Virus record (IMG/VR): IMGVR_UViG_2645727839_000001
Location: 1 to 64,000 of that record
Length of the DNA stretch: 64,000 bases
Source of the DNA: a virus
Lineage: Duplodnaviria > Caudoviricetes
Direction: 5' to 3' (one strand)
In this document: positions 4,808 to 62,466 of the stretch, piece by piece
Position numbering within the stretch: position 1 is the stretch's first letter
How the letters are laid out: each line of letters opens with the position of its first letter
Notes under the pieces: generated by a model
The model's input: the letters and a program-made list of their open reading frames with translations, nothing else
Told to the model about the DNA's origin: nothing
Database searches by the model: none
Made by a program: the position numbers and the translations under genes

Positions 4808-4876
4808 GTTGTTTCTCTCTTTGTGTAAGTCAGTGGTGACTTATTAACGACCCCCAAAAAAAGAGGGTCGTCATAA

Positions 4877-24801: not shown

Positions 24802-24932
24802 GAGTTCTCTCTGTGTGTAGTGGTGTTAGAGTAGAATACATCGTAACAAGTAGAACGCAATAGTACGATTTCTACCCTACTTGTATAAGCTGTGGTTAAC
24901 GTGTACATAACCCTGTATAAGCTGTTATATCT

Positions 24933-28470: not shown

Positions 28471-28721
28471 TTGCTTAATCTCTCTTTGTGTAGTTTGCAC
28501 TAAGTGTGCTGAATAAGTGAGAGCGATTATATGAGTACGTTTTCGGGGTTTGTCTCAATCTAAAGTATGAGATGTCGAGTTAATTAAAAAATATGAACAG
28601 AAGTTTTTATTTTCATTCGAAGGTACAATTGAAAAATAGGGGTAAACTTACCCCTTACCGATTTATCAGCGTCTTTCGTCTTAATAATACAGTCACTAGT
28701 GACTTAGTTAAAGGGTGATTT

Positions 28722-32654: not shown

Positions 32655-32879
32655 AGTTGTTCTCTTTGTGTAGTGTTAGTGAGCTTATATTGTGCAGTGT
32701 TTGACTAGGCATTACTAGTATAAGAAGTGGGGTTTTAGGGGGTATTCCGTAGGTATAAGGAAAGCGATTTTTTTATAGGCTGGGACTGGAACCTTCCGGG
32801 TCGAAGCATCAAGCCCGTATATGGGGAAATGACAAAAGCTAAATGAGGGGAGCTATCAACTCCCCTTGTTACTTAGTTG

Positions 32880-34851: not shown

Positions 34852-34894
34852 AGTGTTTCTCTTTGTGTGGTGTAAACCTATCCGTGTGTGCTTT

Positions 34895-34962
34895 AAAAAA
34901 ATAGGGGCCGCTAAGCCCCGCACACACAAAGAGATCGGAGCGTGTCGCTCGTCTCAATTCAT
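34895..34962 (-). ncRNA. Candidate sRNA-1 with anti-leader seed
   Basis: Promoter 34969-34991, 5' hairpin, exposed UUUGUGUGUG, GGGGC/GCCCC terminator with U-tract. Confidence 0.55.
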
Positions 34963-36040
34963 GTTCTTATATTAACAGCGTTACTCAGGTAATTAAAGTC
35001 ACCACTGACTAAGTGCCTTGGTGATGCCGGATAAGGCGGAGAAAGCCCCATGGTGTTTGTACGAAACAGGCACTCTACCTATACGGATTTCGCCCCTTTC
35101 TCCGGTTTTCAGGATAAACCACTTTCTCCATCGAGGTGGCGCGATATTTTCTACCTTGGCCAGAAGAGGTAAACCTATTAACCGTGGTTGATTATTCTGG
35201 TGTGCCGCTGACCGATACTGGTCTTCCTATAAGAATTTTCTACGATTTGTTGACACTGGAGCTTAAAAGACCACGATAACTAACACTTTTCCCCCAAATT
35301 CTCCCTATTCTCCCCTTATCTATTACTACATACCTTACTACTACTCTTACCTACTCTATCTCTATAGTTACTACCTAATATCTACTTACTATATCTATAC
35401 CGGAGAGTATTGTTCTTCTTTCTATCCGCAGGTTAAGAGCGAGGTAAAGTGACAATTCATTTTAAGGTTTTTCTCTACTGGTAAACTTTACTTTCAATAT
35501 AGACCTTTATTGTACTTTGCTTATACAAGCCGGAGTTATTGAATTTCTCTGTAAGCCTTGTTGTGTATGGGTTTGTTTGAGTTTTTAGGACAGTTAAACA
35601 ATTTACTTTTTTCTTCTACGGTTTGAGTACATTTGCCTTACTCTTGTTTAGTAGGTTTGAAGAGTATTAGCCATGTTTAGCCAGACCATAAAAGACCGTT
35701 TATCTTGTTTTCTTTTTCTCTCACTGGTGTGATTTTGATTTGAGTTGTTTAGGGTTGGATTGGGGTTAGTTCCGGTTGATTAGCTTTGTTATTAGTTACC
35801 GTGTCACATAGCAGTCACGCCACCAGCTTCTCTTTCTCTCTACTGTTTGAGTACAAATACTGAATCAAGGGAGTAATGTTTCTGTCGCTCTGTTGTCTTC
35901 TGAGAGTCTTGGGGTTGTCTTTTTGATGTCTACAGTCAGCTTTTGATTGAAAAGCTCTTAGAATTGATTTGAGAGAGTGATTTAGATATGAAAAAGGGCT
36001 AACTTTCGTTAACCCTTGTTATTGGTTTTATCTACTGTAA

Positions 36041-36559: not shown

Positions 36560-36612
36560 GGTGTTCTCTTTGTGTTTGTCTTGTTGACGAGATAGATAAT
36601 AAGGAACGGGAA

Positions 36613-40285: not shown

Positions 40286-40299
40286 ACTAATCTCCAACC

Positions 40300-40815: not shown

Positions 40816-40997
40816 AATGGAATATCCAGTTTATTACTGTTGTTTTACGTCGATTAAGGAGGAAAAAAATCGACGTTAAACGCTTCCATTGTGCTAGTGC
40901 ATCTCCGGCATATATACCGAGATAGCACGAACCTTTGTTGTTATCACGACGTTGGTGATTCATGGTTGATACTCTCTATGGATTTAGATTGTTTGGG

Positions 40998-41429: not shown

Positions 41430-41592
41430 AGTGCTCTCTTTGTGTAGTGAGTTCGTTTTCAATGAGATCATTATGCTCGATTCTTAGTGGGAGATCGGGC
41501 TACCTCAATGAAAGCCCGCTAGTTTAACCTTATTTCATATTCGGTCAAGCGGTTCAAAAAATAATCAACTCTTATACTAGCCTTCGGAACTC

Positions 41593-41925
41593 TTATACTA
41601 GCTTTCGGGCACGTAAAGCAAGCTCTGGGTTCTCTAGGCAAAGCTCATCACGTCGATTCTCTAGCATGGCTAGGCTCTCTTTCATTGTGACGCGGCTTTT
41701 AACTATCTTTAGAGAGATATACAGGTAGAACAAACTAAAGCCCAGCTGTGTTATCCCTAAAAAAGTATCCCCCATAACCATCATGCTACCCATAACCAAT
41801 GTTAAAGCCATCATAATTCGGCAAATCAAGATAGTTCGACCAGAACGTTTAACGCTTTGCTTGGCAAACCTAATATGAACACAGAGGTGGTTATATTCGG
41901 CTTCTGGATTACGCGCTAAATTCAT
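41593..41925 (-). CDS. Two-TM hypothetical protein
   Basis: Two hydrophobic helices; coupled to the upstream gene. Confidence 0.55.
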   Translation of the reverse strand: MNLARNPEAEYNHLCVHIRFAKQSVKRSGRTILICRIMMALTLVMGSMMVMGDTFLGITQLGFSLFYLYISLKIVKSRVTMKESLAMLENRRDELCLENPELALRARKLV

Positions 41926-42722
41926 ATGCTAAAGCCTGTATTTAATGGAATAACCGCTTCACTTAGTGGCATCTTGATTGGTTTACCACGATATAGATCT
42001 TTTGCATCACCAGAAACCACAACCGTATTGATGTAGTCTTCATTCAGTTTGCCTTTCTCTAAGCCTACGGTCAGGAACAATACGTGGTTATCATCAAAGA
42101 AGAACTGCCCTACTTGCAGCTCACCTAAATCACAAGGTTCTTTTAGCTGATCGTCTCTCATGCATTTCAGGAACAGAATCGAATTAGGTGTTGATGCGTC
42201 GAGTTCTGCCTTGCCGTTTTCGAGGTCTTTAGCTAGTACAGCAAGTTTGCGAAGAGACATTAATGGTCGAAGAGCTCGCTGAGCCTCTTTTTCATTTGGA
42301 GCTGCGGCTTTGATAATTTCGATTATCTTGTCCATCTTTTCGATTTCGTTGCCGAAGTTGGTATCTGATTTAGATTTGTTTTCTCCGCGAAGACGGTTAA
42401 GAACCTCATTAAAGTCTTCTTTGCTGTTCACCTCGAACTTCTTAGCACTAACCTTCATGCCCTTTTGTTGAGATAGGTAATTAGAAGTAAACTCCTGCAA
42501 TAGTTCGCCAGTTCGCACATCTTTAGCCGCAAGACAGCCTTCGTTTGCACCAAGAGCAACGCTATCCGGCATGAACACTTCGTGGCGGTAACCTTCTTTG
42601 TCGATGATAGTGCCAACCAAAGGTCGGTTAGTTACATCGTAATCTTCCACGCAGAAGCCTTTTTCGTTAATAGCCCAATTTTTAAGTGCCTCTAATACGC
42701 GCTTGTTACTATCGATCTTCAT
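41922..42722 (-). CDS. Hypothetical protein
   Basis: 266 aa, GAGGA RBS, palindrome upstream. Confidence 0.65.
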   Translation of the reverse strand: MKIDSNKRVLEALKNWAINEKGFCVEDYDVTNRPLVGTIIDKEGYRHEVFMPDSVALGANEGCLAAKDVRTGELLQEFTSNYLSQQKGMKVSAKKFEVNSKEDFNEVLNRLRGENKSKSDTNFGNEIEKMDKIIEIIKAAAPNEKEAQRALRPLMSLRKLAVLAKDLENGKAELDASTPNSILFLKCMRDDQLKEPCDLGELQVGQFFFDDNHVLFLTVGLEKGKLNEDYINTVVVSGDAKDLYRGKPIKMPLSEAVIPLNTGFSI

Positions 42723-42769
42723 ACATCCTCTTATAAGTCATTGGTGACTTAACATATTAAACAAAAAAT

Positions 42770-42928
42770 TTACCAGTTTTCAGGGTCTAGGCAGTCAGCT
42801 TCGCCCCAGGTACATGCGCCACATGTATCTAAGGACATTTCCAAATTGCCTGTCGTTCGATTAATGATATCAACTGTTGGTGAAGCACCGCAGTTACAGC
42901 ACGAACCTTTTTCGTTTGGCACAGCCAT
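42770..42928 (-). CDS. Small Cys-rich (zinc-finger) protein, 52 aa
   Basis: Manually translated MAVPNEKGSCCNCGASP..CGACTWGEADCLDPENW. Confidence 0.6.
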   Translation of the reverse strand: MAVPNEKGSCCNCGASPTVDIINRTTGNLEMSLDTCGACTWGEADCLDPENW

Positions 42929-42938
42929 ACTTGTTGAT

Positions 42939-43160
42939 TCAGACATCGCATTCTTCCTCTCGAATGTAGCTAACCATTTTTACTTTCTTACCCGTTAGTT
43001 CACCAATACGTTTGGCTAGTGGACGCATCTTGTCGGCAATATCTTTCTTGCCAGTAACAAGAGGCATCCAGCCTTCACCTGTATGGTGACCAACAATGCC
43101 CTCACCCTCATCTCCGCCATTATCAGCTATAAAAGCGAAGAGCTGTTTCAATTCCGACAT
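42939..43160 (-). CDS. Hypothetical protein
   Basis: 73 aa, GAGGG RBS. Confidence 0.6.
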   Translation of the reverse strand: MSELKQLFAFIADNGGDEGEGIVGHHTGEGWMPLVTGKKDIADKMRPLAKRIGELTGKKVKMVSYIREEECDV

Positions 43161-43176
43161 GTTGTTCCCTCTTATT

Positions 43177-43271
43177 GGATTAGGAGAGGGTTTTTTAGCA
43201 GTCCCTTATATATATCTATCTTTGATAGATATATTTATATAACGAACGAGATTTTTACCCTCTCCTAATCC
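43177..43271. repeat. AT hairpin plus 24-bp direct repeat, copy 2, inside a 15-bp inverted repeat
   Basis: ATATATCTATC-TTT-GATAGATATAT then the same 24-mer at 43244-43267. Confidence 0.8.
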
Positions 43272-43651
43272 ATCTCAATGTAACTGCGGTATGCACTAAT
43301 AAAGAATTCAGATTCTTTAGCTGCGGCAACACCGGTTATTTCATGAGATGGAACTAGGGTTTGCGGTACCGGGCGACCTAACAAGATCTCGTAATCCACC
43401 AGCCGACGAACGCCTTTAATTACTGCCTGACCCACAGCTGGCTTACTAAGACCCATTTGGGTAGCCGCAATCTCATAGCTTTGGCCTGCAACAATGGTGT
43501 TATTAACAGCCTCAAGCATCTTCGATGAGATCTTAGGTCGGATTGATAACACCATATCTTGATAGATAACCTTAAGTTTGGCGGCAATCTTAGGTTCGCT
43601 AACGTTGATAGCTTCTCTAAGAGCCAAGATGTGCTCAGTTGTTACCTGCAT
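43265..43651 (-). CDS. HTH protein (TrfB/KorA-like)
   Basis: IVAGQSYEIAATQMGLSKPAVGQAV. Confidence 0.6.
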   Translation of the reverse strand: MQVTTEHILALREAINVSEPKIAAKLKVIYQDMVLSIRPKISSKMLEAVNNTIVAGQSYEIAATQMGLSKPAVGQAVIKGVRRLVDYEILLGRPVPQTLVPSHEITGVAAAKESEFFISAYRSYIEMD

Positions 43652-43823
43652 CTTTAACCTCCAACTTCTCGGTGCGTTGAACAGTGATTTCACTACCCAG
43701 ATCATCAACGGCTAGCTGGATACGACCATTCTTGTAATCTTTAGCAATAACACGGCAAATTTCTTTACCGTCTTTGGACATAATGGAAAGAGATTGTCCC
43801 TTTCCTCTGTTAAGAATTAACAC
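43635..43823 (-). CDS. csrA: CsrA/RsmA-like RNA-binding protein
   Basis: MLILNR..GQSL.I..GRIQLAVD..ITVQRTE matches the CsrA pattern. Confidence 0.72.
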   Translation of the reverse strand: MLILNRGKGQSLSIMSKDGKEICRVIAKDYKNGRIQLAVDDLGSEITVQRTEKLEVKDAGNN

Positions 43824-44157
43824 TTAGTTTTCCTTCAATGTTTCCAAATAGGTTAGGAAACTCTTTTTGAAGGCATTCGACTAGCATTTGCTGATGACCG
43901 CTCGATAACATTTCACTGATACCATCCGTCTTGCTTTGCATAACATAGCCATTAGTGAAACGGCATTTGTTGCTTGCTTCGTTTAGCAAAGAGATTTGGT
44001 TTTCAAACGTAGAAACGTGAATGGTGCCAGTTGCGTCAGCAGAAGAGATTCGATGGTAAGTCACTCCTAACTTATTAGTCAGGGCAACATAAAGGAAACC
44101 TCGAGCTTGGCTTTCGATAGGATGAACAAGTGCTAGTAATTCGATAGTGCCTTTCAT
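43810..44157 (-). CDS. Hypothetical protein
   Basis: CACAAAGAG leader; first gene of the csrA operon. Confidence 0.6.
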   Translation of the reverse strand: MKGTIELLALVHPIESQARGFLYVALTNKLGVTYHRISSADATGTIHVSTFENQISLLNEASNKCRFTNGYVMQSKTDGISEMLSSGHQQMLVECLQKEFPNLFGNIEGKLSVNS

Positions 44158-44437
44158 AGTGATTTTCTCTCTCTTTGTGTGTGATTCTTATAGTAACAGT
44201 GAGCATGTGGCATGTAAACGCAATGAAAAAATAAACTTAACTTAAGAAATAAACTTTATTTCTTGCAATTATATTACCTTTTCTGTGAGCAATTCTAAGA
44301 GCTTTTGATAGATAACTAGAGCAAGTGCTCGAGATATGCACTCCCAGATGCTTGAGAGCGCACAGAGCGCGTTTAAATGAGTGATTTATTGAATTGATAG
44401 AACTATCAGACAAAAGAAAAGGGACTTAAAGTCCCTT

Positions 44438-44824
44438 TCATAAAACATGCTCTGGTTGTTGGTGCCAGGGCCCATAATGTTGGTGCTCAAAAGCATTTAG
44501 TTTGGCACTGTAGTAATCGTAATGAACGCATTGGTCTGGATCTATTTTACCAATAAGGTAATACAGCTCTTTCGGTATGCTGATTTCATTGCCATTTGAG
44601 ATGTCTTTTACCATGATCATCTCACCAATTGGGAGGCTAACCTTAACCTCTAACCAACAATGAGATATCTCCAAGCCTTTTATTGGGCCCTGCCCTGTAA
44701 CCACCCCATGAACCAATCGATAGTTATCGTCATGAGGTAGGTTGTCAAAATGGATATGGAAACAATCACCCATTTGACGGTCTTCGGGAATTGTTTCTAG
44801 GATTTCTTCTTTGGTTGCTCGCAT
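44438..44824 (-). CDS. Hypothetical protein (HCW motif)
   Basis: GDCF..LVHG..SHCWLE..YGPW. Confidence 0.6.
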   Translation of the reverse strand: MRATKEEILETIPEDRQMGDCFHIHFDNLPHDDNYRLVHGVVTGQGPIKGLEISHCWLEVKVSLPIGEMIMVKDISNGNEISIPKELYYLIGKIDPDQCVHYDYYSAKLNAFEHQHYGPWHQQPEHVL

Positions 44825-45093
44825 CGGTTTCTTAACTTTAGTCCGGCTTTAAAGGTGCAGACACGACGAGCGGTAATAGTTACAGGTTCTTTCGTCTTAG
44901 GGTTGCGACCCGGACGACTCGGCTTTTCTCTGGTAACAAAGTTACCAAAGCCAGAAAGTTTCAGTTCACCTTCAACGATCTCATTGCTTAAGGTGCTAAA
45001 GAAATCATCCACGAAACTTTTTGAATCGCGAATTGTGAAGCCTAGTTTGTTCTGTAGACTTTCTGCCAAAACTGCTTTGGTTAATGTGCTCAT
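44797..45093 (-). CDS. ihfA: Integration host factor alpha-like
   Basis: LTKA.LAE, KLSGFGNF..R.K..RPGRNPKT.E..ITARRV.TF. Confidence 0.88.
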   Translation of the reverse strand: MSTLTKAVLAESLQNKLGFTIRDSKSFVDDFFSTLSNEIVEGELKLSGFGNFVTREKPSRPGRNPKTKEPVTITARRVCTFKAGLKLRNRCEQPKKKS

Positions 45094-45146
45094 AGTGCCT
45101 CTCTTTGTGTTTTATTAGTCATTGGTGACTTAACAACTGAGGCGTG

Positions 45147-46052
45147 TTAAGCCTCAGTATTTAGCTTCTCGGCAAGTACGCTATCTGGATTTAGCGTCAG
45201 TGTCTTACCTGCAAGTGTGCCAATCTTCATGAAGTTAATAACCTGCATGAGCTGACTTGATTGAGCCGAAGCCGTACCTTTTGAGTACTTCTCTTGGTAT
45301 CGGTCGCGTAGCTCAGTCGATGAGAGAGTACCGTTTTTAAATAACATGTCCAGAGCAATGTCGGTATACACAGAGAGTGCCACGCCAGAGTTCAGGTGTT
45401 GGAACATGTTCAGTACTTTTTCACCTACTTTCTTTGGAAGTTTGTCGATATCGTTAAGACGGCTGTTAATCAAACCTGTCATATCTTCAACTTCTGTGTC
45501 GGCTTTAACTAGAACCATGTGAGTATTGATAGACTCGCCTAGTTTTACCTTAACGGCTTCTGACTTGGATAGGCCTGATACACCGGGACCACGTTTAGCT
45601 GCGGTCTTTTTAGTTTCAGGTTTAGCCACCGGTTCTTCCGAACTCTCGTCTTCCGTTGGGATCTTCTTGTTAGCTGCCTTCTTCTTGTTACTCTCAACCT
45701 CAGAAGTTTTAGTTTCTGGCTTAGCTAGAACCTCGTCTTCCTCAACCTCGTCTTCTTCGTAAAGCTCGGTGTTGTCTTGAGTTGCAGGGTCAGAAGCCAG
45801 TAGCTCTTCCAGTTCATCATCTAGATCATCTAGAACGATATCGCTTTTAGCCTCTACTTCGCTATCGTCAGCACCTTCTAGTACTAACTCATCGATGCCA
45901 TCAAGTAGCTCATCAAGCTCTTCGGAAGCATCATCTGCCTTTACAGGAGTTGTAACAGGAGCATCAGCCTCTAGCTCTTCGATGTCCAAGTCAGCCAGTA
46001 ATGCGTCTAGCTCGTTTTCTTGTGATTTAGCAGTTGCAGTTGAAACGCTCAT
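45147..46052 (-). CDS. Acidic N-terminus plus winged-helix-like C-terminus protein
   Basis: Very Asp/Glu-rich N-terminal region; C-terminal YSKGTASAQSSQ helix. Confidence 0.65.
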   Translation of the reverse strand: MSVSTATAKSQENELDALLADLDIEELEADAPVTTPVKADDASEELDELLDGIDELVLEGADDSEVEAKSDIVLDDLDDELEELLASDPATQDNTELYEEDEVEEDEVLAKPETKTSEVESNKKKAANKKIPTEDESSEEPVAKPETKKTAAKRGPGVSGLSKSEAVKVKLGESINTHMVLVKADTEVEDMTGLINSRLNDIDKLPKKVGEKVLNMFQHLNSGVALSVYTDIALDMLFKNGTLSSTELRDRYQEKYSKGTASAQSSQLMQVINFMKIGTLAGKTLTLNPDSVLAEKLNTEA

Positions 46053-46148
46053 AAGTGCCTCTCTTTGTGAATTAGTGTATTTCGTTTCGATGAGTACATA
46101 TTAAGTGACTTGAATTGGCAGTCCTACTCAGCCACTTAATAATGCCTG

Positions 46149-46616
46149 TTAAGACCAGAGCCCTAAGTCGGATGACGATGAGGCTGGCGCAGCCGTTGAA
46201 ATTTCTTCCTCTACCTCATTAGGTTCGGGTTCGTAGATAGTCTCTTCTTTGACTTCTGGCTCTTTGATTAGAATGTTGCCTTTCTCTACGAATTCCATCT
46301 CATCATCGAGATCTGATTTGGTAAATTGAAGAAGTACATCCTCAAATCCCACGTTCATCTCTTCTTCCGAACGGAATGTATTGGTTAAAGAAACATCTTT
46401 TATCCAATTACCATTCACATTGTTATGAACGAAAAGTGTGAATAACTTTCGGTCTTCCGGTGCAGTTCGAGAATCAGCCTCCCCTCGCCATTCCGCAGAT
46501 ACCATAATGTCGTTATTGCAGTACTCTCGAAAGACTCGGTATTCATCTCGAGCTAGAAGTTTGCGCCACGCTTCTTTCTTAATACGTGCGCCTTTCTTGT
46601 TATAGAACTGGATCAT
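46149..46616 (-). CDS. Hypothetical protein
   Basis: 155 aa; palindrome abuts start. Confidence 0.6.
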   Translation of the reverse strand: MIQFYNKKGARIKKEAWRKLLARDEYRVFREYCNNDIMVSAEWRGEADSRTAPEDRKLFTLFVHNNVNGNWIKDVSLTNTFRSEEEMNVGFEDVLLQFTKSDLDDEMEFVEKGNILIKEPEVKEETIYEPEPNEVEEEISTAAPASSSSDLGLWS

Positions 46617-46727
46617 AAGTCACCCGTTACTTTATTTAGTGAGTGCTTATGTTAATTGCTGAGGAATGGGGATGAAAGGACGGGTATAAAAAAGCCCTAC
46701 ATGAGTAGGGCTTGGTCTTACTGGATA

Positions 46728-47252
46728 TTACATCGACATAATATATTTTTTATTTGAAGCCGACTTTACTTTGATTCTCTGCATCAAGGTGCCACCTTCG
46801 GGAACAATTGAGTCTGAACTTACTTGCCACGTAATGCCCGAGACAATGAAGTACTCACCTGCCGGAACATCTTCAAACTCGAATGAACCTGTAGCGTCAC
46901 ATACGGATACTAGGTTGTAATTAAGAAATTCAGCCGGAGCTTGAGGTGGTGTGCCACCAGCAGAGAAAGGACTTGTTGAGCGAAAGCCCTTAACAGTATT
47001 GCCGTAGATAATGGAAATACGTTCTTCTGAGTAAGGTGATACAGGGACCATATCTATTTGGTAGCCTGCGCATGTTTTAACTTCACCGCCAACGGTACGT
47101 AGGAATGCTTGACCACGCACTGTTGCATCACCTTCTTCTTGTGACCATTCAACGTCTGATGGTGCGAAAGTATTTTGCATTGGGGTAACAGTTGCGCAAC
47201 CTGCAAGGGCTATTGAACCGATCGCTACGGCGATAAGTGATAATTTTTTCAT
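46728..47252 (-). CDS. Lipoprotein with beta-sandwich domain
   Basis: Lipobox LAGC; CDATGSFEFEDVPAGEY. Confidence 0.75.
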   Translation of the reverse strand: MKKLSLIAVAIGSIALAGCATVTPMQNTFAPSDVEWSQEEGDATVRGQAFLRTVGGEVKTCAGYQIDMVPVSPYSEERISIIYGNTVKGFRSTSPFSAGGTPPQAPAEFLNYNLVSVCDATGSFEFEDVPAGEYFIVSGITWQVSSDSIVPEGGTLMQRIKVKSASNKKYIMSM

Positions 47253-47325
47253 GGTAATTGTTCTCTTTGTGCTTAGTGTGATGCGAATATTAGAGATTAG
47301 TGGATGGGTTTTCAATACTACAGAC

Positions 47326-47430
47326 ACAACAAAGCCGCCCGACTGGGCGGCTTTTATGCGTAGGCCACTACCCTACTGAACAATTAAAATTGTTCTACAC
47401 AAAGAGAAACCACTAAAAGTAGTTTCACCA
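47326..47430 (-). ncRNA. Candidate sRNA-2 with anti-leader seed
   Basis: TATACT -10 at 47436-47441; three hairpins plus GCCGCCC/GGGCGGC terminator; 19-nt perfect complement to leader 62262-62280. Confidence 0.65.
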
Positions 47431-47449
47431 GTGCGAGTATATGCGGTTC

Positions 47450-47998
47450 TTAAGATGCATTCAACCGAAAGTAGCCTAAACGCTCGCCTTCAAAGAGCGA
47501 ACGAGCCAAAACATCAGTGTCATAGTCGGCTCTGTGAGCTGATTCTGGGTCGTAATCCACACCCATAGCCCAACATAACTCTGCTAGATTGGGTACTTTA
47601 CCCATTGAAGTTGCTGTTCTCCCCTCAACCATAGTGTCATAGACTTCAAACTGAGGAACTTCAAAGCCATCAGCCATCAAATTGAAAGCAATGATTGGGA
47701 AATCGAACGAATAGCCATTATGCGCAACGGCATAATCGCACTTCTCAAGAATCTTAATTAGCTTAGGCGCAACCTCTTTGAATGCAGGTTTGCCTTTCAA
47801 ATCATCAGCACTAATGCCGTGTACAACTTGAGCCTTTGGATCGATTGCTTTAGGCGTCCAAATCAATTCGTTCCATGTAGTTCCGACCTGACGCCAACCT
47901 GCTTCTTGCTTGCGGTATACGCCAACAGCAATCTCGATGATCTTATCTTCTTCAACGTTTAAGCCTGTGCTCTCAACGTCCAGAACAGCAACTATCAT
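47450..47998 (-). CDS. DEDDh 3'-5' exonuclease (DnaQ-like)
   Basis: LDVESTG, VHGI, AHN..FD, HRADYD. Confidence 0.9.
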   Translation of the reverse strand: MIVAVLDVESTGLNVEEDKIIEIAVGVYRKQEAGWRQVGTTWNELIWTPKAIDPKAQVVHGISADDLKGKPAFKEVAPKLIKILEKCDYAVAHNGYSFDFPIIAFNLMADGFEVPQFEVYDTMVEGRTATSMGKVPNLAELCWAMGVDYDPESAHRADYDTDVLARSLFEGERLGYFRLNAS

Positions 47999-48241
47999 TT
48001 ACATCTCCATATTAAGCCAGCGTATTTCAGCGGCTACGTAATCTGAAAGGACTATCATTTTTCGAATCGGTGACAGGTACATCCACTTAATGTGACTACT
48101 GGAAAAGTAGTTTGCTGCGAAGCCACCATCCTCAGAACCGATAGCTTTTTGAATCTCAGCTAATGCCTCATTAAACTCAACACTATCCGTATCGCCTGCA
48201 ACCTGAGCTGCTTGTTTAATTAGTTCATTTAGATTCTTCAC
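47999..48241 (-). CDS. Hypothetical protein
   Basis: Coupled in operon. Confidence 0.55.
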   Translation of the reverse strand: MKNLNELIKQAAQVAGDTDSVEFNEALAEIQKAIGSEDGGFAANYFSSSHIKWMYLSPIRKMIVLSDYVAAEIRWLNMEM

Positions 48242-48675
48242 ACCTCAACAAAGCCTCGCTCTAACAACTGAGAGATAAGCTTTAGATAAGCGACATGGCT
48301 CGTTTTTGTTGGGTCATCGGCATCTTCAAAGCTCTTTACCGAATCTTTAGGTTCGCCACCGTCTGAAATCTTGGTCATGACAAAGCTATCCTCAGTCATT
48401 ACTCGTTTCATAATGACCAACATCCCCTTTGTGCGAAAGACTCTTCGCATAACGACAGGTTCGCCATTTTGACTAGCGTGTTCAGATATCCAATCTGTAA
48501 CGTCATCATCAATTAGACCGCACGTTACGAGGTTGATAGCTGTTAGAGATTGATAAAAAGCCTCATCTGACATCATCCCCTTATCGTGACTATTCGCCAT
48601 CTCTGACAAACTCTCGAGGGTTTTGCGGTTCAGCTCTTCTTTTATTGTTGGAGGGGTATCTACATCAGTGGTCAT
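48238..48675 (-). CDS. Hypothetical protein
   Basis: 145 aa; leader variant CACGAAGAG. Confidence 0.6.
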   Translation of the reverse strand: MTTDVDTPPTIKEELNRKTLESLSEMANSHDKGMMSDEAFYQSLTAINLVTCGLIDDDVTDWISEHASQNGEPVVMRRVFRTKGMLVIMKRVMTEDSFVMTKISDGGEPKDSVKSFEDADDPTKTSHVAYLKLISQLLERGFVEV

Positions 48676-48741
48676 GTGATTTCTCTTCGTGTTAAGTCAG
48701 TAGTGACTTGTTATTATATGAGTATAAAGATGGCGGAGCAA

Positions 48742-49380
48742 TTAGTGAGATTGCTTGCCGTCTCTAATTGATTCAGCTTTGCGAAAGCTTTTAAGGATAG
48801 TTCGCATCAAACCATCCATTCTCTCTTCAAAGCCGATAGTCTTTTTGTCTAGCGTATAGCAGGAAAGTTTGGTTGATGGGTCAACGAACAAACCACGAAT
48901 AAGCAGTTCATGTTTGTTCATGTACAAGGGATTCATGACACCTTTGTAATCTTCGTAGACAACAGGTATGCCTTGAGGCACCAAAACCAAGCTAGAGAAA
49001 CGCTTGTTGGCTTCTTTAATGCAAGCCTCTACGTATTGCATCATGCGTTCACTTTGCATTTGGGTCGTTTTGTTGGGGATGTAATCCATCATTGCGTAAG
49101 CCGCCATATCAATAGGCGTTCTGTCAGTGACAAAAGCCTTATGTTGTGACCACACATCAATAGCGCCATCTAAAATCGCCCACTGAATGTTGAGCCGCTC
49201 ATCGAATGAGAGTTTCGCATTAGGTTTTAAACCTGCTTCTTTGAAGATGTTCGATGTACTGGTTTGAGCAAAGGGGAGTTCAGTTCGAAGAGACAGCTCT
49301 TTAGCCAGAGATGTTTTGCCAGTTCTATGAGTCCCGGCTAGTCCAATTGCGAAGTTTGAAAGGTCGTAATTTTTAGTCAT
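48742..49380 (-). CDS. P-loop nucleotide kinase-like protein
   Basis: GTHRTGKT, DRTPID. Confidence 0.72.
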   Translation of the reverse strand: MTKNYDLSNFAIGLAGTHRTGKTSLAKELSLRTELPFAQTSTSNIFKEAGLKPNAKLSFDERLNIQWAILDGAIDVWSQHKAFVTDRTPIDMAAYAMMDYIPNKTTQMQSERMMQYVEACIKEANKRFSSLVLVPQGIPVVYEDYKGVMNPLYMNKHELLIRGLFVDPSTKLSCYTLDKKTIGFEERMDGLMRTILKSFRKAESIRDGKQSH

Positions 49381-49468
49381 TTTATTTTAGTCATTGCATA
49401 GTGAGTTGCTATTTTATCGACTCGCAATCGGCATTGACACAAGGCTTACACAAGGAAAAACAACCCCT

Positions 49469-50179
49469 ATGACTACAGCACAAAGCGTTATCAGAGATAG
49501 ACGTTCGGCAAGAGTGTTCGTGAAAAACCACGACTACGATCCAAACATCATCAGTGAATGCCTCAAGCTTGCTCACCTTGCCCCCAATAGTTCTAACTTA
49601 CAGTTATGGGAGTTTCACCGTGTCACGACAGAAAACAAAAAGGCACTAATGAAACTCGCTTGCCTAAACCAATCGGCTGCAGCGACTTCCAGTGAACTGA
49701 TTGTCTTTGTAGGAACGCCTCAAAGGTGGAAAGCCAGTGTTGAACACCACGCTAGTCGAATTGCAGCCTTGCCAGGTTATTTGGAGAATGATGATTTAGC
49801 CTACGCACACCGATACTTCACTAAGACTGTCCCTTTTAACTATCGCAATGACAGGTTTGGCTTAATGGGGCTAGTTCGTAAGCTTATGAACTTCACGACC
49901 GGATTGTTTAAGCCCATTCCAAGAGAGGTCTTCCGTTCTGATATTCGCGCCACCATTCACAAGAACAACGCTCTAGCCATCATGACCTTTTGTTTAGCCA
50001 TGAAAGAACAAGGTCTTGATACCTGCATAATGGAGGGATTCGATTCAGTTCGTGTAAAGAAAATATTAGGTTTGGATAGCGAAAGCATAATCACCGCAGT
50101 TGTCGCATGTGGCAAAGCTGCGCCAGAGGGGATTTACGGTAATCGCGTAAGATTCCCCTGCCCTATCTTCAAGCATTAA
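49469..50179 (+). CDS. Nitroreductase family protein
   Basis: RRSAR.F, APNSSNLQLWEF, GLDTCIMEGFD. Confidence 0.88.
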   Translation: MTTAQSVIRDRRSARVFVKNHDYDPNIISECLKLAHLAPNSSNLQLWEFHRVTTENKKALMKLACLNQSAAATSSELIVFVGTPQRWKASVEHHASRIAALPGYLENDDLAYAHRYFTKTVPFNYRNDRFGLMGLVRKLMNFTTGLFKPIPREVFRSDIRATIHKNNALAIMTFCLAMKEQGLDTCIMEGFDSVRVKKILGLDSESIITAVVACGKAAPEGIYGNRVRFPCPIFKH

Positions 50180-50228
50180 AAAAGGGGCTGTTAACCCCTA
50201 GCTGAAAAGACAAAGAAAAGAGGGGGCA

Positions 50229-50486
50229 CTACTCCCCTTTGGACTCGTTACTGTCCTGTTCTGCGGTTAGAGCTGCGTTTTGTTCACGTAGCTCTTGAAT
50301 CTGTTGGCCTTGGTCTTCGATGTACAAAGCCATTTCTGCCTTTTCGTGGCGATGACCGTTAATCTCGGCTTCAAGAATTTGATTCTTCTTAGCTAGTAGT
50401 GGTAGCTGACGCAATTGATCAACAATCTGTTGGCTTAGTTGAGTTTGCGGTTGTTCTTGTGTTGCTTCTGTAGTTTGTTCTGTCAT
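50229..50486 (-). CDS. Coiled-coil hypothetical protein
   Basis: 85 aa, AGGA RBS. Confidence 0.55.
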   Translation of the reverse strand: MTEQTTEATQEQPQTQLSQQIVDQLRQLPLLAKKNQILEAEINGHRHEKAEMALYIEDQGQQIQELREQNAALTAEQDSNESKGE

Positions 50487-50529
50487 TGGACTATCCTGTA
50501 ACGAGTAAAGTTAAGTAAGTGGTGACTTA

Positions 50530-51009
50530 TCACCATGAGCCAAAATTATCATATTTTTTTGGCTGAGTCTCGAACTCTGCCACTTCTTCTAGATCTTGTT
50601 CGATATCTACCTCATCCACGTAAATATCTGAATAGGTATGCCCCTTAATTCTAGGGCTATCATGTTTATGTTTATCAAAGCTGATAGACATACCACCACC
50701 ACGGGACATCGACTCATAAATAGGAAACTCTTCGATAGGCTCTGGACACCTACCTCTTAGCTTGCATTCAGCCGTAGCCATCACCGTAGCTCTATCAGGT
50801 TCTATTGCGTAATCTTTGAAATGCCTACTAGTGATACTCACGTAAGGGCAATTGGTGCACTCTGTTCCTAAATCCCTTTTCAGATTCGCGATAGCCTTTT
50901 CTTCGCACACCTTGGGCATTGATAACTTCGAAGAAAAGGCCGCTTCCATGCGGCCAGAGCTATAAGAAATGGAACACTTGAGCGTTTCACCTTCTTTTAG
51001 CGATTTCAT
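50530..51009 (-). CDS. Hypothetical protein ending FGSW
   Basis: 159 aa ORF in operon. Confidence 0.6.
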   Translation of the reverse strand: MKSLKEGETLKCSISYSSGRMEAAFSSKLSMPKVCEEKAIANLKRDLGTECTNCPYVSITSRHFKDYAIEPDRATVMATAECKLRGRCPEPIEEFPIYESMSRGGGMSISFDKHKHDSPRIKGHTYSDIYVDEVDIEQDLEEVAEFETQPKKYDNFGSW

Positions 51010-51011
51010 TA

Positions 51012-51575
51012 CTATCTAGTCATCCTTAAAATAGCCAGTACCGATTGAAAATCTTCCGTCTTAAGTCCGGCATAGATAGCAGCAAGAGCATCAGCCAAGT
51101 GCTCATTCGTATTGGTGATTTGCAATTCGCCTTTCACTTTACGAGTAAGCCATTTCAGCTCTGGTTGGTCTGCAACAGCCCAAACGATTTGCTCTTCTTT
51201 GCTTGCTGTCTTATGACCTGCACCTGCAAGTTTCACTTCGTCAGGGGATACCTGAATCATTGGTATCTGCATAGAAGCCAGTAAGCCGATACAAATACCG
51301 TAACTTGCCATTGCTCGAGCTGATTGAGAACCAACAGGGACTTCAACGAACGCCACAGCAGCACCATCTATCTGAGAACGAATAGCGTCAGCCAAATCTC
51401 TAGCTCGAGAAAGGTCATCACTGTTCTTACGAACAGTTTTTTTGTTCTTGCCTGTCGCGGTTTTTTGCAGATAAAGCGATTGGCCTGTTACCTTCTTGGT
51501 ATCAGCGTCCACTTCTGCTTTCACAAAACCCCAGTTACTAAGAGATGGGTCCATACCTATGACGGAGATTTTCAT
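51012..51575 (-). CDS. RuvC-like Holliday junction resolvase
   Basis: IGMDPSLSNWG, FVE, EVK..G..TASK, EHLADA. Confidence 0.78.
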   Translation of the reverse strand: MKISVIGMDPSLSNWGFVKAEVDADTKKVTGQSLYLQKTATGKNKKTVRKNSDDLSRARDLADAIRSQIDGAAVAFVEVPVGSQSARAMASYGICIGLLASMQIPMIQVSPDEVKLAGAGHKTASKEEQIVWAVADQPELKWLTRKVKGELQITNTNEHLADALAAIYAGLKTEDFQSVLAILRMTR

Positions 51576-51781
51576 TCTTCTTCCTCTGTCACCTTATCTA
51601 AGGCATCAAGGTATTCTTGAGTGTCATCACCGGATACCAGAATCACAGCGGCAAGAGCCTTATCACCCTCGCCTCGAAATGAAAGAGTCATAGAACCTGC
51701 GTTTAACTCTGCCATCTCGTCTGCTACTTCCTTGATGGTCATGTTGCACATCTCATTGGCGTCAATAAATCTCTTAAGCAT
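51572..51781 (-). CDS. Hypothetical protein
   Basis: Coupled in operon. Confidence 0.55.
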   Translation of the reverse strand: MLKRFIDANEMCNMTIKEVADEMAELNAGSMTLSFRGEGDKALAAVILVSGDDTQEYLDALDKVTEEEE

Positions 51782-52230
51782 TACCAGCTCCCAAATTTTT
51801 CATTAGATATGTAAGGTGTGTCGTCGGCAGGTACGTCATACATATCTGCATTAGTTACTTCACGGTCAGTTGCTTCGCCTACATCACGCATAAGCTTTGC
51901 AAAGTCACCTGATGCTAATCGGTCACCAAGTAGCGTCATTTTTGCCTCAATGAACTCGACATCATTCATGGAAGCCGGCACTGGCATTTCGTTGTAGTCA
52001 GGTTTCAGAACGACAATGAGTTCGTCGGTCTTTTTAGAGCGGTAAGCATCGTAAACAAACAGAGGAACGGAGTTGTCCACCAGCTTGTTTCGATATTGTC
52101 CGTCATAACGTTTAACGATTATCTTGAGTGGCATAGATAGGCGCACTCGAAGACGATCTTCATCTGGAACTTCTTTGATGTACTGCCTAATCAATCCGTA
52201 GGCTTTTAAATCATGACCAGGAGTCGCCAT
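51781..52230 (-). CDS. Hypothetical protein ending FGSW
   Basis: ORF in operon. Confidence 0.6.
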   Translation of the reverse strand: MATPGHDLKAYGLIRQYIKEVPDEDRLRVRLSMPLKIIVKRYDGQYRNKLVDNSVPLFVYDAYRSKKTDELIVVLKPDYNEMPVPASMNDVEFIEAKMTLLGDRLASGDFAKLMRDVGEATDREVTNADMYDVPADDTPYISNEKFGSW

Positions 52231-52771
52231 CTTCCATCCCCACTTGAGCAATTTCTTCTAACTCGGCATCTGCTTCACGCAAACCAGCCGCTTGCTTAAG
52301 AATGGTCATCAGCGACTCACTCTTTGATACCACCTGATCCATTGGGATATTGAAGTGCAGTCCCTCTGGACCCTCGCCTAGACATAGTTGGAATATCAAG
52401 CCGTCTTTAGGGTTGCGAACGAATTCTAATAGGTGGAATTCGGTGCCACGTTCGATTTCAACTTTCTTAGGTTCTTCGGTGCTATTCACATAGCCGTCCC
52501 ATTCAACGTCTTCATCGATAAAGACAGGTAGTGAGTCTTTGTTGCGATCAACAATCTCATCTACGGCAATAGCTAGGTCTTCTAGAGTCTCGTAGCGGTA
52601 CTTAATGAGGCGACGATACAGTTCTTGAAGCTTATCGAGACGGTGGTGGTCTAGATCAATAAGCTGACTTGTTAGGTCTACGGGTAGCTCTACAAATTCC
52701 TTTACGAAAGCAGAGTTTTTGGTTTCTTCGATGCTCTGTTTGATAACGGACATCATCATATTGTTACTCAT
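52211..52771 (-). CDS. Hypothetical protein
   Basis: 186 aa, AGGA RBS. Confidence 0.62.
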   Translation of the reverse strand: MSNNMMMSVIKQSIEETKNSAFVKEFVELPVDLTSQLIDLDHHRLDKLQELYRRLIKYRYETLEDLAIAVDEIVDRNKDSLPVFIDEDVEWDGYVNSTEEPKKVEIERGTEFHLLEFVRNPKDGLIFQLCLGEGPEGLHFNIPMDQVVSKSESLMTILKQAAGLREADAELEEIAQVGMEDGDSWS

Positions 52772-52845
52772 ATTTATCCTATTTCCATAACCTAGAGTAA
52801 GTCACTAGTGACTTACTCTATCACTTAAGAAGAGGCAGTGAAACA

Positions 52846-56540: not shown

Positions 56541-56608
56541 TTTGACCTCTTTGTGATTCTCTTACATAAGTAAGCAGTGACTTAATAATATACTTAGGAA
56601 TAAGGTGT

Positions 56609-58115: not shown

Positions 58116-58141
58116 ACCAAAAAGGGGCTTACGCCCCTCTC

Positions 58142-59146: not shown

Positions 59147-59155
59147 GTAATCACC

Positions 59156-62261: not shown

Positions 62262-62466
62262 GTGGTTTCTCTTTGTGTAGTGATAAGTCAGTGATGACTA
62301 ATTACATTATAAAGAAACAGAGTAGGCACTTCTACAGTCAGCAGTGACTAATATAAGATTTTATTGGGAATTTCCAAAAAACCGCAGACGGGAATTTCGT
62401 TTTCTGGGGGTGGTTAGCCCCCAAGATATAAAGAATCTTTGTTGGTTAACAGCTCTAACCTGTCAA

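What the first reader, a model, noticed from the sequence alone, without database searches (positions are those of the whole stretch)
47326..47441. Candidate trans-acting sRNA with a perfect 19-nt complement to a ribosome-binding region 15 kb away
Seen: on the minus strand a TATACT -10 is followed by hairpin GAAACUACU/AGUGGUUUC, unpaired UCUUUGUGUA, hairpins GAACAAUU/AAUUGUUC and GUAGG/CCUAC, and a GCCGCCC terminator. 47395-47413 is the exact reverse complement of 62262-62280, the 19 nt directly before the ATG of the SAM-methyltransferase-like gene. The core CUCUUUGUGUAG also pairs with the leaders at 28482, 32662 and 41436. No ORF follows on the + strand. Inference: a phage-encoded sRNA that silences a regulon of genes sharing one leader, conceptually like GcvB (GU-rich seed against CA-rich leaders) or P1 c4 antisense RNA. 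I do not know of such a system described for this phage-plasmid group.
Basis: partly seen in the sequence, partly recalled or inferred. Interest (0 to 1): 0.88.

Follow-up and report, generated by a model that had tools for sequence, protein, structure and literature searches.

The report
Candidate anti-leader RNAs in phage-plasmid
A phage that can also live as a plasmid gives about twenty of its genes the same short leader and carries two small gene-free units whose RNA would mirror that leader, which could let it damp all those genes at once, although no transcript has been seen yet.

Summary
47395-47413 is the exact reverse complement of 62262-62280, and it lies between a sigma-70-like promoter and an intrinsic terminator on the minus strand. 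It sits beside stable hairpins and no ORF follows it.

The matched 19-mer is not one gene's RBS. It is the consensus 5' leader of at least 21 genes in this 115-kb SSU5-like phage-plasmid. Of 17 exact copies of the 11-nt leader core, 15 are in sense orientation. Only two are inverted, and both are intergenic and lie just 5' of a terminator: the finding, and a second unit I found at 34895-34971.

Predicted net binding to all 21 leaders is -10 to -20 kcal/mol, against a mean of -4 for 128 other start regions.

My best reading (0.4) is one or two trans-acting anti-leader RNAs that block ribosome binding. Rivals are cis pairing in read-through or 5'-3' UTR form (0.22), an inverted leader relic (0.25), and a DNA site or plus-strand promoter (0.08).

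There is no expression data and no relative carrying the motif, so neither conservation nor covariation could be tested. No Rfam family matches. I rate it a new variant of phage antisense control (c4, sar).

The parts
47459..47464 (-). -35-like hexamer TTGAAT of unit 1, inside the 3' end of the exonuclease gene
   Evidence: TTGAAT-17-TATACT, 9 of 12 matches. The count of such sites in the region is at chance level (3 found, 2.9 expected).
47436..47441 (-). -10-like hexamer TATACT of unit 1
   Evidence: The same hexamer precedes the sense leader of the gene starting at 81777.
47325..47429 (-). predicted ~105-nt non-coding RNA (unit 1). The ends are inferred from the -10 hexamer and the terminator.
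   Evidence: fold; promoter and terminator; no minus-strand ORF of 30 aa or more inside the unit apart from the over-extended GTG frame of the next gene. Expression is not shown.
47406..47426 (-). hairpin 1 (9 bp including one U-G pair); its 3' arm is the 5' part of the anti-leader
   Evidence: The U-G pair becomes an A-C mismatch on the plus strand: -22.3 kcal/mol for the minus-strand fold against -15.5 for the plus.
47395..47413 (-). 19-nt anti-leader; the fully unpaired core is about 47397-47403
   Evidence: exact complement of 62262-62280; the plus-strand copy scores 23.8 bits on the leader PWM, rank 8 of 31 hits; similarity to other loci is confined to these 19 nt.
47378..47395 (-). hairpin 2 (7 bp, 4-nt loop)
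47360..47376 (-). hairpin 3 (5 bp)
   Evidence: (centroid)
47331..47354 (-). intrinsic terminator hairpin (10 bp, 7 G-C), followed by an interrupted U-tract
62262..62282 (-). leader of the 236-aa gene (ATG 62261); perfect 19-bp partner of unit 1
   Evidence: 19 bp, 0 G-U; net -20.1 kcal/mol, best of 21
47253..47276 (-). leader of the lipoprotein-like gene 46728-47252, the cis neighbour downstream of unit 1
   Evidence: 12 bp, 1 G-U; pairs with the anti-leader in the read-through fold; rank 14 of 21
48676..48696 (-). 5' leader of the operon that ends with the exonuclease gene and unit 1
   Evidence: 17 contiguous bp including 2 G-U; -18.4 kcal/mol, rank 3 of 21
34966..34971 (-). -10-like hexamer TATAAG of unit 2
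   Evidence: read. The same hexamer precedes the sense leaders at 32669 and 44178. The consensus scan did not list it as a full promoter.
34895..34959 (-). predicted ~65-nt non-coding RNA (unit 2), found here
   Evidence: no credible ORF; fold -21.3 kcal/mol, z -2.0; the seed lies between a 5' hairpin and the terminator
34921..34934 (-). 14-nt anti-leader of unit 2; a perfect complement of the leaders of the genes starting at 44157 and at 88241 (the latter lies outside the window)
34904..34919 (-). terminator hairpin of unit 2, followed by a tail with seven consecutive U
4808..4830 (-). sense leader (gene ATG 4807)
24802..24822 (-). sense leader (gene ATG 24801)
28471..28495 (-). sense leader (gene ATG 28470, BTP-domain membrane protein)
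32655..32675 (-). sense leader (gene ATG 32654)
34852..34872 (-). sense leader (gene ATG 34851), directly downstream of unit 2
36560..36579 (-). sense leader (gene ATG 36559, outer-membrane beta-barrel-like protein)
41430..41449 (-). sense leader (gene ATG 41429, DUF4262 protein)
44158..44184 (-). sense leader (gene ATG 44157)
45094..45114 (-). sense leader (gene ATG 45093)
46053..46074 (-). sense leader (gene ATG 46052)

Best explanation
Unit 1 (47429..47325, minus strand) is a small non-coding RNA gene of an SSU5-like phage-plasmid, and unit 2 (34959..34895) probably is too. Each is transcribed from its own sigma-70-type promoter and ends at an intrinsic terminator.

Between a 5' hairpin and the next hairpin, each RNA exposes a U/G-rich 'anti-leader'. 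This stretch is complementary to the C/A- and purine-rich leader (the 11-nt core plus flanks, ending 4-12 nt before AUG) that at least 21 first genes of transcription units share in place of a canonical Shine-Dalgarno sequence. Pairing of 11-19 bp covers roughly positions -19 to -4 and would keep the 30S subunit off these mRNAs. One or two RNAs would therefore set a common translational threshold for all leader-bearing transcripts.

What is shown: the sequences, their complementarity, the folds, the terminators, and that only two inverted copies exist. What is inferred: transcription, the RNA ends, action in trans, the repressive outcome, and the timing (lysogeny or a late shut-off of early genes).
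For: (1) The 19-nt complement is exact (0 of 100 shuffles).

(2) Of 17 exact copies of the 11-nt core in the 115,468-bp genome, 13 are followed within 4-12 nt by ATG and an ORF of 40 aa or more. Two lie in sense orientation inside genes. Only 2 are inverted, and both are intergenic on the transcribed strand of minus-gene arrays.

(3) Both inverted copies lie 43 nt or less 5' of a terminator hairpin. Only 639 of 5781 (11%) comparable intergenic positions lie within 70 nt of one, which gives roughly 0.012 for both by chance.

(4) Similarity to the leaders stops exactly at the leader boundaries, and no flanking homology to any locus exists.

(5) The fold is stable and strand-asymmetric: -22.3 kcal/mol on the minus strand against -15.5 on the plus, with a G-U pair in hairpin 1.

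(6) Net cofold binding of unit 1 to 21 of 21 leaders is -10.2 to -20.1 kcal/mol (mean -15.2). For 128 other start regions the mean is -4.1 and the 5th percentile -9.3. Unit 2 gives means of -14.2 against -5.3.

(7) The cis neighbour ranks only 14 of 21, so the seed fits the consensus better than its own downstream gene.

(8) The two seeds match the two leader subtypes. Unit 2 is a perfect 14-mer complement of the leaders at 44157 and 88241.

(9) The motif keeps a near-constant distance to ATG (4-12 nt) but a variable distance to the -10 hexamers (8-36 nt). That points to an RNA- or translation-level role. Only 3 of 21 leader genes have a canonical SD tetramer, against 51 of 128 other genes.
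Against: No transcript evidence of any kind exists. No related sequence carries the element or the leader. The syntenic spot after the exonuclease gene holds an ordinary coding gene in G002, G009, G010 and L020 (read); in phage nickie the annotation table shows a 74-nt gap before the next CDS (that sequence was not read). So neither conservation nor covariation supports the element.

Promoter-like hits occur at chance frequency (3 against 2.9), and the unit-2 promoter was not listed by the scan. The seeds are only partly free, with 4-5 kcal/mol to open 11 nt. The unit-1 terminator has an interrupted U-tract. The unit-2 fold is only weakly better than shuffles (z -2.0, 7 of 200).

The leader class includes a repressor-like gene and genes expected to be on in lysogeny, so a simple 'silence the lytic genes' logic does not hold. 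Read-through RNA folds with the anti-leader on the next leader, so trans action is not required.
Confidence: 0.4

Rival explanations
1. A cis-acting anti-RBS element in a 3' UTR or intergenic spacer. The anti-leader is part of the long operon mRNA (leader at 48696, two small genes, the exonuclease gene, then the anti-leader and terminator). It could pair with the leader of the next gene when the terminator is read through, so the lipoprotein gene is translated only from its own promoter. Or it could pair with the operon's own 5' leader, a 5'-3' UTR interaction like that recalled for icaR in Staphylococcus.
For: The MFE and centroid folds of the read-through RNA 47430..47225 pair the anti-leader with the lipoprotein leader (-64.1 kcal/mol, z -5.4). 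The operon's own leader forms 17 contiguous bp with the anti-leader, its two deviations from consensus being kept as G-U pairs, and it ranks 3 of 21 in net energy. Both inverted copies sit directly upstream of a leader-bearing gene. The lipoprotein gene has its own promoter-like site downstream of the anti-leader and its own terminator.
Against: The seed fits the distant 62261 leader (19 of 19) and the consensus better than the cis neighbour (12 bp with 1 G-U, rank 14 of 21). For unit 2, the read-through fold pairs the seed with a different downstream stretch, not with the next leader, and the upstream gene is cut off from unit 2 by its own terminator at 36017..35994. A strong terminator lies between the anti-leader and the leader in both units.
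Confidence: 0.22
2. A relic without function. The leader, with its promoter context, is a recombination-prone cassette present about 20 times. The two inverted copies are leftovers of lost or inverted plus-strand genes, and they happen to lie in spacers created when accessory genes were inserted.
For: The element and the adjacent lipoprotein gene are absent at the syntenic position in all 5 relatives checked, so the spacer is young. A -10-like hexamer lies at the usual distance upstream of the plus-strand copy (47385-47390, read). Divergent gene pairs with leaders in both orientations exist, for example around 19361. There is no conservation or expression evidence.
Against: The copy is 19 of 19 identical to a leader and scores 23.8 bits on the PWM, yet homology ends exactly at the leader's two ends. 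No ORF remnant follows. Both inverted copies sit between a -10 hexamer and a terminator on the opposite strand, roughly 0.012 by position alone. Hairpin 1 is built from the leader complement plus a matching arm and is better on the minus strand. Unit 2 has no plus-strand -10 within 20 nt.
Confidence: 0.25
3. The motif is read at the DNA level or from the plus strand. Either a regulator binds the leader sequence as double-stranded DNA and the inverted copies are extra sites, or the plus-strand copy is a live promoter-leader that drives an antisense RNA into the 3' end of the exonuclease gene.
For: The motif is over-represented on both strands of intergenic DNA. A -10-like hexamer lies upstream on the plus strand. 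The terminator at 47331-47354 is symmetric enough to work in both directions.
Against: The motif is anchored to the ATG (4-12 nt) and not to -10 elements (8-36 nt). The scan found 0 plus-strand promoter-like sites in 46600-48100. The plus-strand RNA fold is weaker, and no ORF or terminator follows on the plus strand. The phage already has a separate dispersed DNA operator, the 14-bp palindrome in 28 copies.
Confidence: 0.08

Closest known systems
P1/P7 c4 antisense RNA (immI: c4-icd-ant)
   Same: A phage-plasmid-encoded small RNA of ~77 nt that acts in trans by pairing around a ribosome binding site to block translation (review PMC12197685, passages seen; PMC8546580 introduction passage). P1 also spreads one repressor's operators over the whole genome, 22 sites. 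Here a 14-bp palindrome occurs 28 times. c4 lies upstream of its target on the same strand (recalled), as unit 1 lies upstream of a leader-bearing gene.
   Different: No match to any Rfam model at the gathering threshold or at E<=10 other than weak terminator-driven hits; no C4 row appears. c4 has one target operon, the antirepressor. Here the complement is the shared leader of at least 21 genes, and no antirepressor homologue is adjacent. c4 is cut out of a longer transcript by RNase P (title of the reference cited). Here an own promoter and terminator are predicted.
P22 sar and lambda OOP antisense RNAs
   Same: Short phage RNAs of 68-77 nt that repress one phage gene by base pairing; sar blocks initiation of ant translation (PMC12197685, passages and table seen).
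   Different: OOP is transcribed opposite its own target and is listed as cis. sar is listed as trans in that table, but I recall it as also being transcribed opposite ant. Each has one target. Here the targets lie up to 15-40 kb away and are many.
GcvB-type 'one seed, many leaders' sRNAs
   Same: The logic recalled from the literature is the same: a G/U-rich single-stranded seed pairs with C/A-rich stretches in the 5' UTRs of many mRNAs. The predicted seed here is U/G-rich, and the target core is C/A- and purine-rich.
   Different: The element is not a family member: no GcvB row even at E<=10. The targets are the phage's own standardised leaders, with 11-19 bp of near-perfect pairing, not diverse host mRNAs.
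T4 RegA (and RegB)
   Same: The functional idea, recalled and not tested, is the same: a phage factor that acts on the translation initiation regions of many early mRNAs to shut them down together.
   Different: RegA and RegB are proteins. Here the proposed factor is RNA, and the recognition element is a standardised leader.

Membership tests
Rfam C4 antisense RNA (P1/P7 c4) | Match to the family covariance model | tested here: not met
   0 families at gathering score in the whole window. In 47200-47520 at E<=10, 22 weak rows were returned and none is C4.
Rfam C4 antisense RNA (P1/P7 c4) | Sits in an immunity operon upstream of icd/ant (antirepressor) | tested here: not met
   The downstream gene is a lipoprotein-like protein of PHROG 14789 (unknown function) and the upstream gene is a DnaQ-like exonuclease. 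No antirepressor was found among the 10 neighbours scanned.
Rfam C4 antisense RNA (P1/P7 c4) | Matured by RNase P from a longer transcript | not testable with these tools
   No RNA data; no run was listed.
GcvB | Match to the family covariance model | tested here: not met
   No GcvB row at E<=10.
Trans-acting base-pairing sRNA (generic) | Own promoter and a discrete transcript | tested here: inconclusive
   TTGAAT-17-TATACT is correctly placed, but such hits occur at chance frequency. No RNA run was listed.
Trans-acting base-pairing sRNA (generic) | Intrinsic terminator at the 3' end | tested here: met
   Unit 1: 10-bp stem with 7 G-C, and an interrupted U-tract. Unit 2: 6-bp stem with 5 G-C, followed by a U-rich tail.
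Trans-acting base-pairing sRNA (generic) | Single-stranded seed complementary to the translation initiation regions of distant mRNAs | tested here: met
   21 of 21 leaders form 11-19 contiguous bp, with net energy -10.2 to -20.1 kcal/mol. The seed is only partly free, with an opening cost of 4-5 kcal/mol.
Trans-acting base-pairing sRNA (generic) | Conservation or covariation in relatives | tested here: not met
   No relative has the element or the leader motif. Pattern hits: 6 in total in G001-G005 (0-2 each), about the same as the reversed-pattern control (6 in total). No hits in the palindrome-bearing loci L178-L224. The syntenic spacers are coding or short.
Leader-peptide attenuator (Phe/Leu leader) | Model match above threshold, a translatable leader peptide, and an alternative antiterminator | tested here: not met
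   Phe_leader 27.9 bits against a gathering score of 55; Leu_leader 19.8-25.9 against 50. The only frame is a 14-codon GTG frame with no upstream purine-rich ribosome site (read).
SSU5-supercommunity phage-plasmid (context) | Related head genes, replication-gene synteny and a partition system | tested here: met
   Portal 49-56% identical to ten 94-118-kb IMG/VR records, about 50% to phage nickie and 48% to SSU5-like E. coli phages, and 51.5% to Acinetobacter plasmids. The SSB-exonuclease-recombinase-SbcCD-dnaQ order matches nickie. ParA- and ParB-like genes are present.

The most novel reading that the evidence does not exclude
This phage-plasmid has standardised the 5' UTR of about twenty transcription units into one leader. 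It encodes two sibling anti-leader RNAs, one constitutive and one next to an operator, that titrate all leader-bearing mRNAs together. That would be an RNA-based, genome-wide translational threshold: an 'RNA RegA', or a c4 generalised to the whole phage. It would sharpen the lysogeny-to-lytic switch or shut off early genes.
Probability: 0.3. Interest if true: 0.85.

Novelty: new variant of a known kind. Interest (0 to 1): 0.62.

Why it matters
Known phage antisense RNAs (c4, sar, OOP) each control one gene. A phage RNA aimed at a leader shared by some twenty of the phage's own transcription units would be a different design: global, dosage-sensitive translational control written into a standardised 5' UTR.

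SSU5-like phage-plasmids are widespread. The portal search alone matched 966 plasmid records. Their lysis-lysogeny control is little described, and my searches found no RNA regulator reported for them.

The system is also directly testable. It offers 11-19-bp pairings, two seeds and two leader subtypes, which suits compensatory-mutation tests. The shared leader and the 28-copy palindromic operator give a compact map of this phage's regulatory grammar whether or not the RNAs prove real.

Tried and rejected
Rfam. There was nothing at gathering score in the window. At E<=10, both regions gave only weak hits, far below the gathering scores; around unit 1 they look terminator-driven.

Relatives by sequence.
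- blastn 'distant' of 46700-48100 against phages gave no match.
- megablast of 40000-60000 against plasmids gave no match.
- The 19-mer in viral contigs gave 0 stretches.
That scan was uninformative.

Relatives by protein.
- Lipoprotein in viral contigs: none.
- Exonuclease in viral contigs: 2 loci at 28-31% identity.
- Exonuclease in genome contigs: 15 loci; full-length matches are 35% identical or less.
- Exonuclease in metagenome contigs: 37 loci, the best being L020 at 44%.
- Portal in viral contigs: none confirmed.
- The 1210-aa protein against phages: no match.
- The operator palindrome did find 47 stretches, including ten SSU5-like records, but these lack the leader.
- k-mer and flank inspection of nickie (50 kb of its 112 kb) and of G002 showed no shared leader. 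nickie has one similar leader.

RNA evidence. No RNA holder was listed and no run of any kind was listed.

Other ideas considered and rejected.
- A leader-peptide attenuator, because there is no ribosome site or antiterminator and the model hits are sub-threshold.
- A plus-strand gene after the inverted copies. There is none after 47397. After 34924 there is only a 16-codon GTG frame, read, too short to weigh.
- The 'SAM methyltransferase' label for the 236-aa gene.

Caveats. In some searches the start coordinates typed for two leaders (true ATGs at 41429 and 47252) were off by 1-6 nt. The windows still held the motifs, but the positions relative to ATG printed for those two rows are shifted. 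The family searches used 46728-47255, and 10 also used 28033-28479 and 40998-41435; these carry 1-3 extra codons upstream of the true ATG. Gene maps in the scripts are crude longest-ORF calls. Paper supplements were not requested. The look-up of encoding contigs was not called because it is closed.
Full report
WHAT THE WINDOW IS

The window is bases 1-64000 of a 115,468-bp IMG/VR virus record with 43.6% G+C. It encodes:
- portal, large terminase and major head proteins;
- a replication and recombination block: SSB-like protein, exonuclease, UvsX/RecA-like recombinase, SbcD/SbcC-like proteins and a DnaQ-like exonuclease;
- DnaB-like helicase, primase and ligase;
- ParA-like and ParB-like partition proteins;
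- HTH regulators.

The portal is about 50% identical to Pseudomonas phage nickie and 47-48% to SSU5-like E. coli, Klebsiella and Rhizobium phages. It is 51.5% identical to ~107-kb Acinetobacter plasmids and 49-56% to ten 94-118-kb IMG/VR records. Gene order matches nickie. This is therefore a divergent member of the SSU5 supercommunity of phage-plasmids. Its host is unknown.

CHECK OF THE OBSERVATION

The 19-mer is present exactly twice, at 47395-47413 (+) and 62262-62280 (-), and 0 of 100 shuffles reached two matches. The second copy abuts the ATG of a 236-aa minus-strand ORF.

Unit 1 lies on the minus strand, in the 197-nt spacer between the DnaQ-like exonuclease gene (47450-47998) and a lipoprotein-like gene (46728-47252). 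That gene belongs to PHROG 14789, and its homologues occur in Pseudomonas and Pasteurella temperate phages. The spacer contains:
- TTGAAT-17-TATACT at 47464..47436;
- three hairpins;
- a 10-bp terminator hairpin at 47354..47331;
- a second promoter-like site for the lipoprotein gene at 47315..47287.

The fold is far more stable than shuffles (z -6.7 with the terminator, z -4.0 without). It is stronger on the minus strand than on the plus strand (-22.3 against -15.5 kcal/mol), because a U-G pair in hairpin 1 becomes an A-C mismatch on the plus strand.

Two points need correcting. Only 7 nt of the anti-leader are fully unpaired, and opening 11 nt costs 4-5 kcal/mol. The 'SAM methyltransferase' label for the target gene has no support.

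WHAT THE 19-MER REALLY IS

It is not a private RBS. The 11-nt core occurs 17 times exactly in the genome; from genome size alone I expect about 0.05. Those 17 copies divide as follows:
- 13 are followed within 4-12 nt by ATG and an ORF of 40 aa or more;
- 2 lie in sense orientation inside genes;
- 2 are inverted.

With near-matches, at least 21 genes carry the leader. I built a position weight matrix from 16 leaders. It scores the plus-strand copy at 47393 at 23.8 bits, rank 8 of 31 hits. Among the 20 hits of 19 bits or more, 47393 is one of only two without a following start and ORF. The other, 89298, is a sense leader whose usual ATG position holds an in-frame ATC.

Of the 21 leader genes, 19 have an upstream gap of 45 nt or more, so they are first genes of transcription units. 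Only 3 of 21 have a canonical SD tetramer, against 51 of 128 other genes. The motif keeps a tight distance to the ATG (4-12 nt) but a loose one to upstream -10-like hexamers (8-36 nt). I therefore read it as an RNA-level translation initiation element and not as a promoter part.

The class is functionally mixed. It includes:
- a repressor-like HTH gene (88241-88585) and a PadR-like regulator (88612-89145);
- a BTP-domain membrane protein and an outer-membrane beta-barrel-like protein;
- the lipoprotein gene;
- a DUF4262 protein;
- several genes of unknown function.

A SECOND UNIT

The other inverted exact copy (34924-34934 on the plus strand) also lies in a spacer of a minus-strand gene array. 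Read on the minus strand, the spacer holds:
- a TATAAG hexamer at 34971..34966, the same -10 as two bona fide leader promoters;
- a 5-bp hairpin;
- a 14-nt anti-leader at 34934..34921;
- a terminator at 34919..34904 with a long U tail.

No credible ORF is present. This seed is a perfect 14-mer complement of the leader subtype found before the genes at 44157 and 88241. Unit 1 fits the other subtype. The two units share nothing except the 11-nt core, so they are not duplicates of each other.

IS THE PLACEMENT MORE THAN CHANCE?

Both inverted copies lie 43 nt or less upstream of a minus-strand terminator hairpin. With my own crude terminator scan, 639 of 5781 (11%) intergenic positions inside minus-gene arrays lie within 70 nt of such a hairpin. 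That gives roughly 0.012 for both copies. This figure is rough, because some of the counted hairpins belong to the units themselves. Homology to the leaders ends exactly at the leader's first conserved base and at the base before the ATG, and there is no flanking similarity to any locus.

PREDICTED PAIRING

Cofold energies, net of both partners' own folds, are as follows:
- Unit 1 against all 21 leaders: -10.2 to -20.1 kcal/mol, mean -15.2.
- Unit 1 against 128 other start regions: mean -4.1, 5th percentile -9.3, minimum -13.8.
- Unit 2: mean -14.2 for the leaders against -5.3 for the others.

Ungapped helices are 11-19 bp long and cover about -19 to -4 relative to the ATG. The best partner is the 62261 leader (19 bp). 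The operon's own 5' leader at 48696 forms 17 bp, with its two deviations from consensus kept as G-U pairs. The cis neighbour at 47276 forms 12 bp and ranks 14 of 21.

MECHANISM AND RIVALS

My preferred reading (0.4) is that one or two small RNAs act in trans and occlude the shared ribosome binding region. That would impose a common, titratable threshold on all leader-bearing mRNAs. Unit 1 has a promoter without the operator palindrome. A palindrome copy lies 25 nt upstream of the unit-2 -10 hexamer.

The cis rival (0.22) is serious. The read-through RNA folds with the anti-leader on the lipoprotein leader, and the own-operon 5' leader pairs well. However, the unit-2 read-through fold does not use the next leader, and the unit-1 seed fits the consensus better than its neighbour.

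The relic rival (0.25) rests on three things: the absence of the element at the syntenic site in 5 of 5 relatives checked (L020, nickie, G002, G009, G010), a -10-like hexamer upstream of the plus-strand copy, and the lack of any expression or conservation data.

A DNA-site or plus-strand-promoter reading (0.08) is disfavoured. The motif is anchored to the ATG, and the scan found 0 plus-strand promoter-like sites.

COMPARISON WITH KNOWN SYSTEMS

In logic the element is closest to P1/P7 c4, a trans-acting RNA of a phage-plasmid that covers a ribosome binding site. P1 also has 22 dispersed repressor operators (passages seen). It also resembles P22 sar and lambda OOP. The 'one U/G-rich seed, many C/A-rich leaders' idea recalls GcvB, and the 'shut many initiation regions at once' idea recalls T4 RegA; both comparisons are from memory.

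It is not a member of any Rfam family. There were 0 hits at gathering score, and at E<=10 only terminator-driven rows such as Phe_leader at 27.9 bits against a threshold of 55. Four full-text searches returned no paper describing an RNA regulator of SSU5-like phage-plasmids or a phage sRNA aimed at a shared phage leader. I saw only search listings and abstracts for these, plus passages of PMC12197685 and PMC8546580.

WHAT COULD NOT BE DONE

- No sequencing run was listed.
- No close relative exists in phages, plasmids, viral contigs, genome contigs or metagenome contigs.
- The relatives that share the operator palindrome do not share the leader.

Conservation and covariation, the strongest computational tests, therefore remain open.

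VERDICT

I rate it a new variant of phage antisense control if real, with interest 0.62.

Noticed in passing
window 34895-34971 (-): A second promoter-to-terminator unit with an inverted leader core. It has a TATAAG hexamer, a small hairpin, a 14-nt anti-leader and a terminator with a long U tail, and it sits directly upstream of the leader of the gene starting at 34851. It is now part of the main reading.
   Followed up: yes
28 sites genome-wide, e.g. window 4828, 12691, 13057, 48695, 62286, 62336: The 14-bp palindrome AGTCA-N4-TGACT (often a 20-bp extended palindrome) occurs 28 times, 27 of them intergenic and just upstream of gene starts; 50 shuffles gave a mean of 0.46 and a maximum of 2. 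Relatives share it: 25, 18 and 10 copies in G002, G009 and G010, and L020 has one. In G002 it fills the spacer of sigma-70-type promoters. It looks like a dispersed repressor operator, as the C1 operators are in P1.
   Followed up: partly
window 34960-36040: About 1 kb without a credible ORF, with strong strand asymmetry (GC skew down to -0.51, AT skew to -0.44) and four copies of a CAGTAGAGAAAAA-like repeat. It could be an origin, a partition site or a long non-coding RNA. Unexplained.
   Followed up: partly
genome 89298-89323 (L176:5298-5323): A sense leader whose usual start position holds an in-frame ATC instead of ATG. An ATG lies 21 nt upstream, inside the leader. This may be a non-canonical start or a shifted start.
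   Followed up: partly
window 46692-47315: The lipoprotein-like gene (signal peptide with a lipobox-like cysteine, PHROG 14789) has its own promoter-like site and terminator. Homologues at about 29% identity occur in Pseudomonas aeruginosa temperate phages. It is a typical 'moron' inserted after dnaQ, and it is absent at this site in relatives.
   Followed up: partly
window 36041-36559 and 28033-28470: Two further accessory membrane genes carry the shared leader: an OmpA/AcfA-like beta-barrel protein (weak NCBIfam hits) and a BTP-domain (AceI-like) protein.
   Followed up: no
L174:48283-48310 (phage nickie, before gp009): Phage nickie has a single leader containing the same 11-nt core shortly before an ATG. 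It has no family of such leaders in the 50 kb examined.
   Followed up: partly
G002 (L236-L241), 9 sites: A different repeated 11-mer (CGTTTCGATAA and its complement, 9 copies) appears in the loops of small hairpins in intergenic DNA of this relative. Its function is unknown.
   Followed up: no
window 47384-47428 (-): A 14-codon GTG frame with three consecutive Leu codons overlaps hairpin 1 and the anti-leader. Weak Rfam Leu/Phe-leader hits (20-28 bits, thresholds 50-55) come from the terminator. There is no ribosome site, so I judged it not to be an attenuator.
   Followed up: yes
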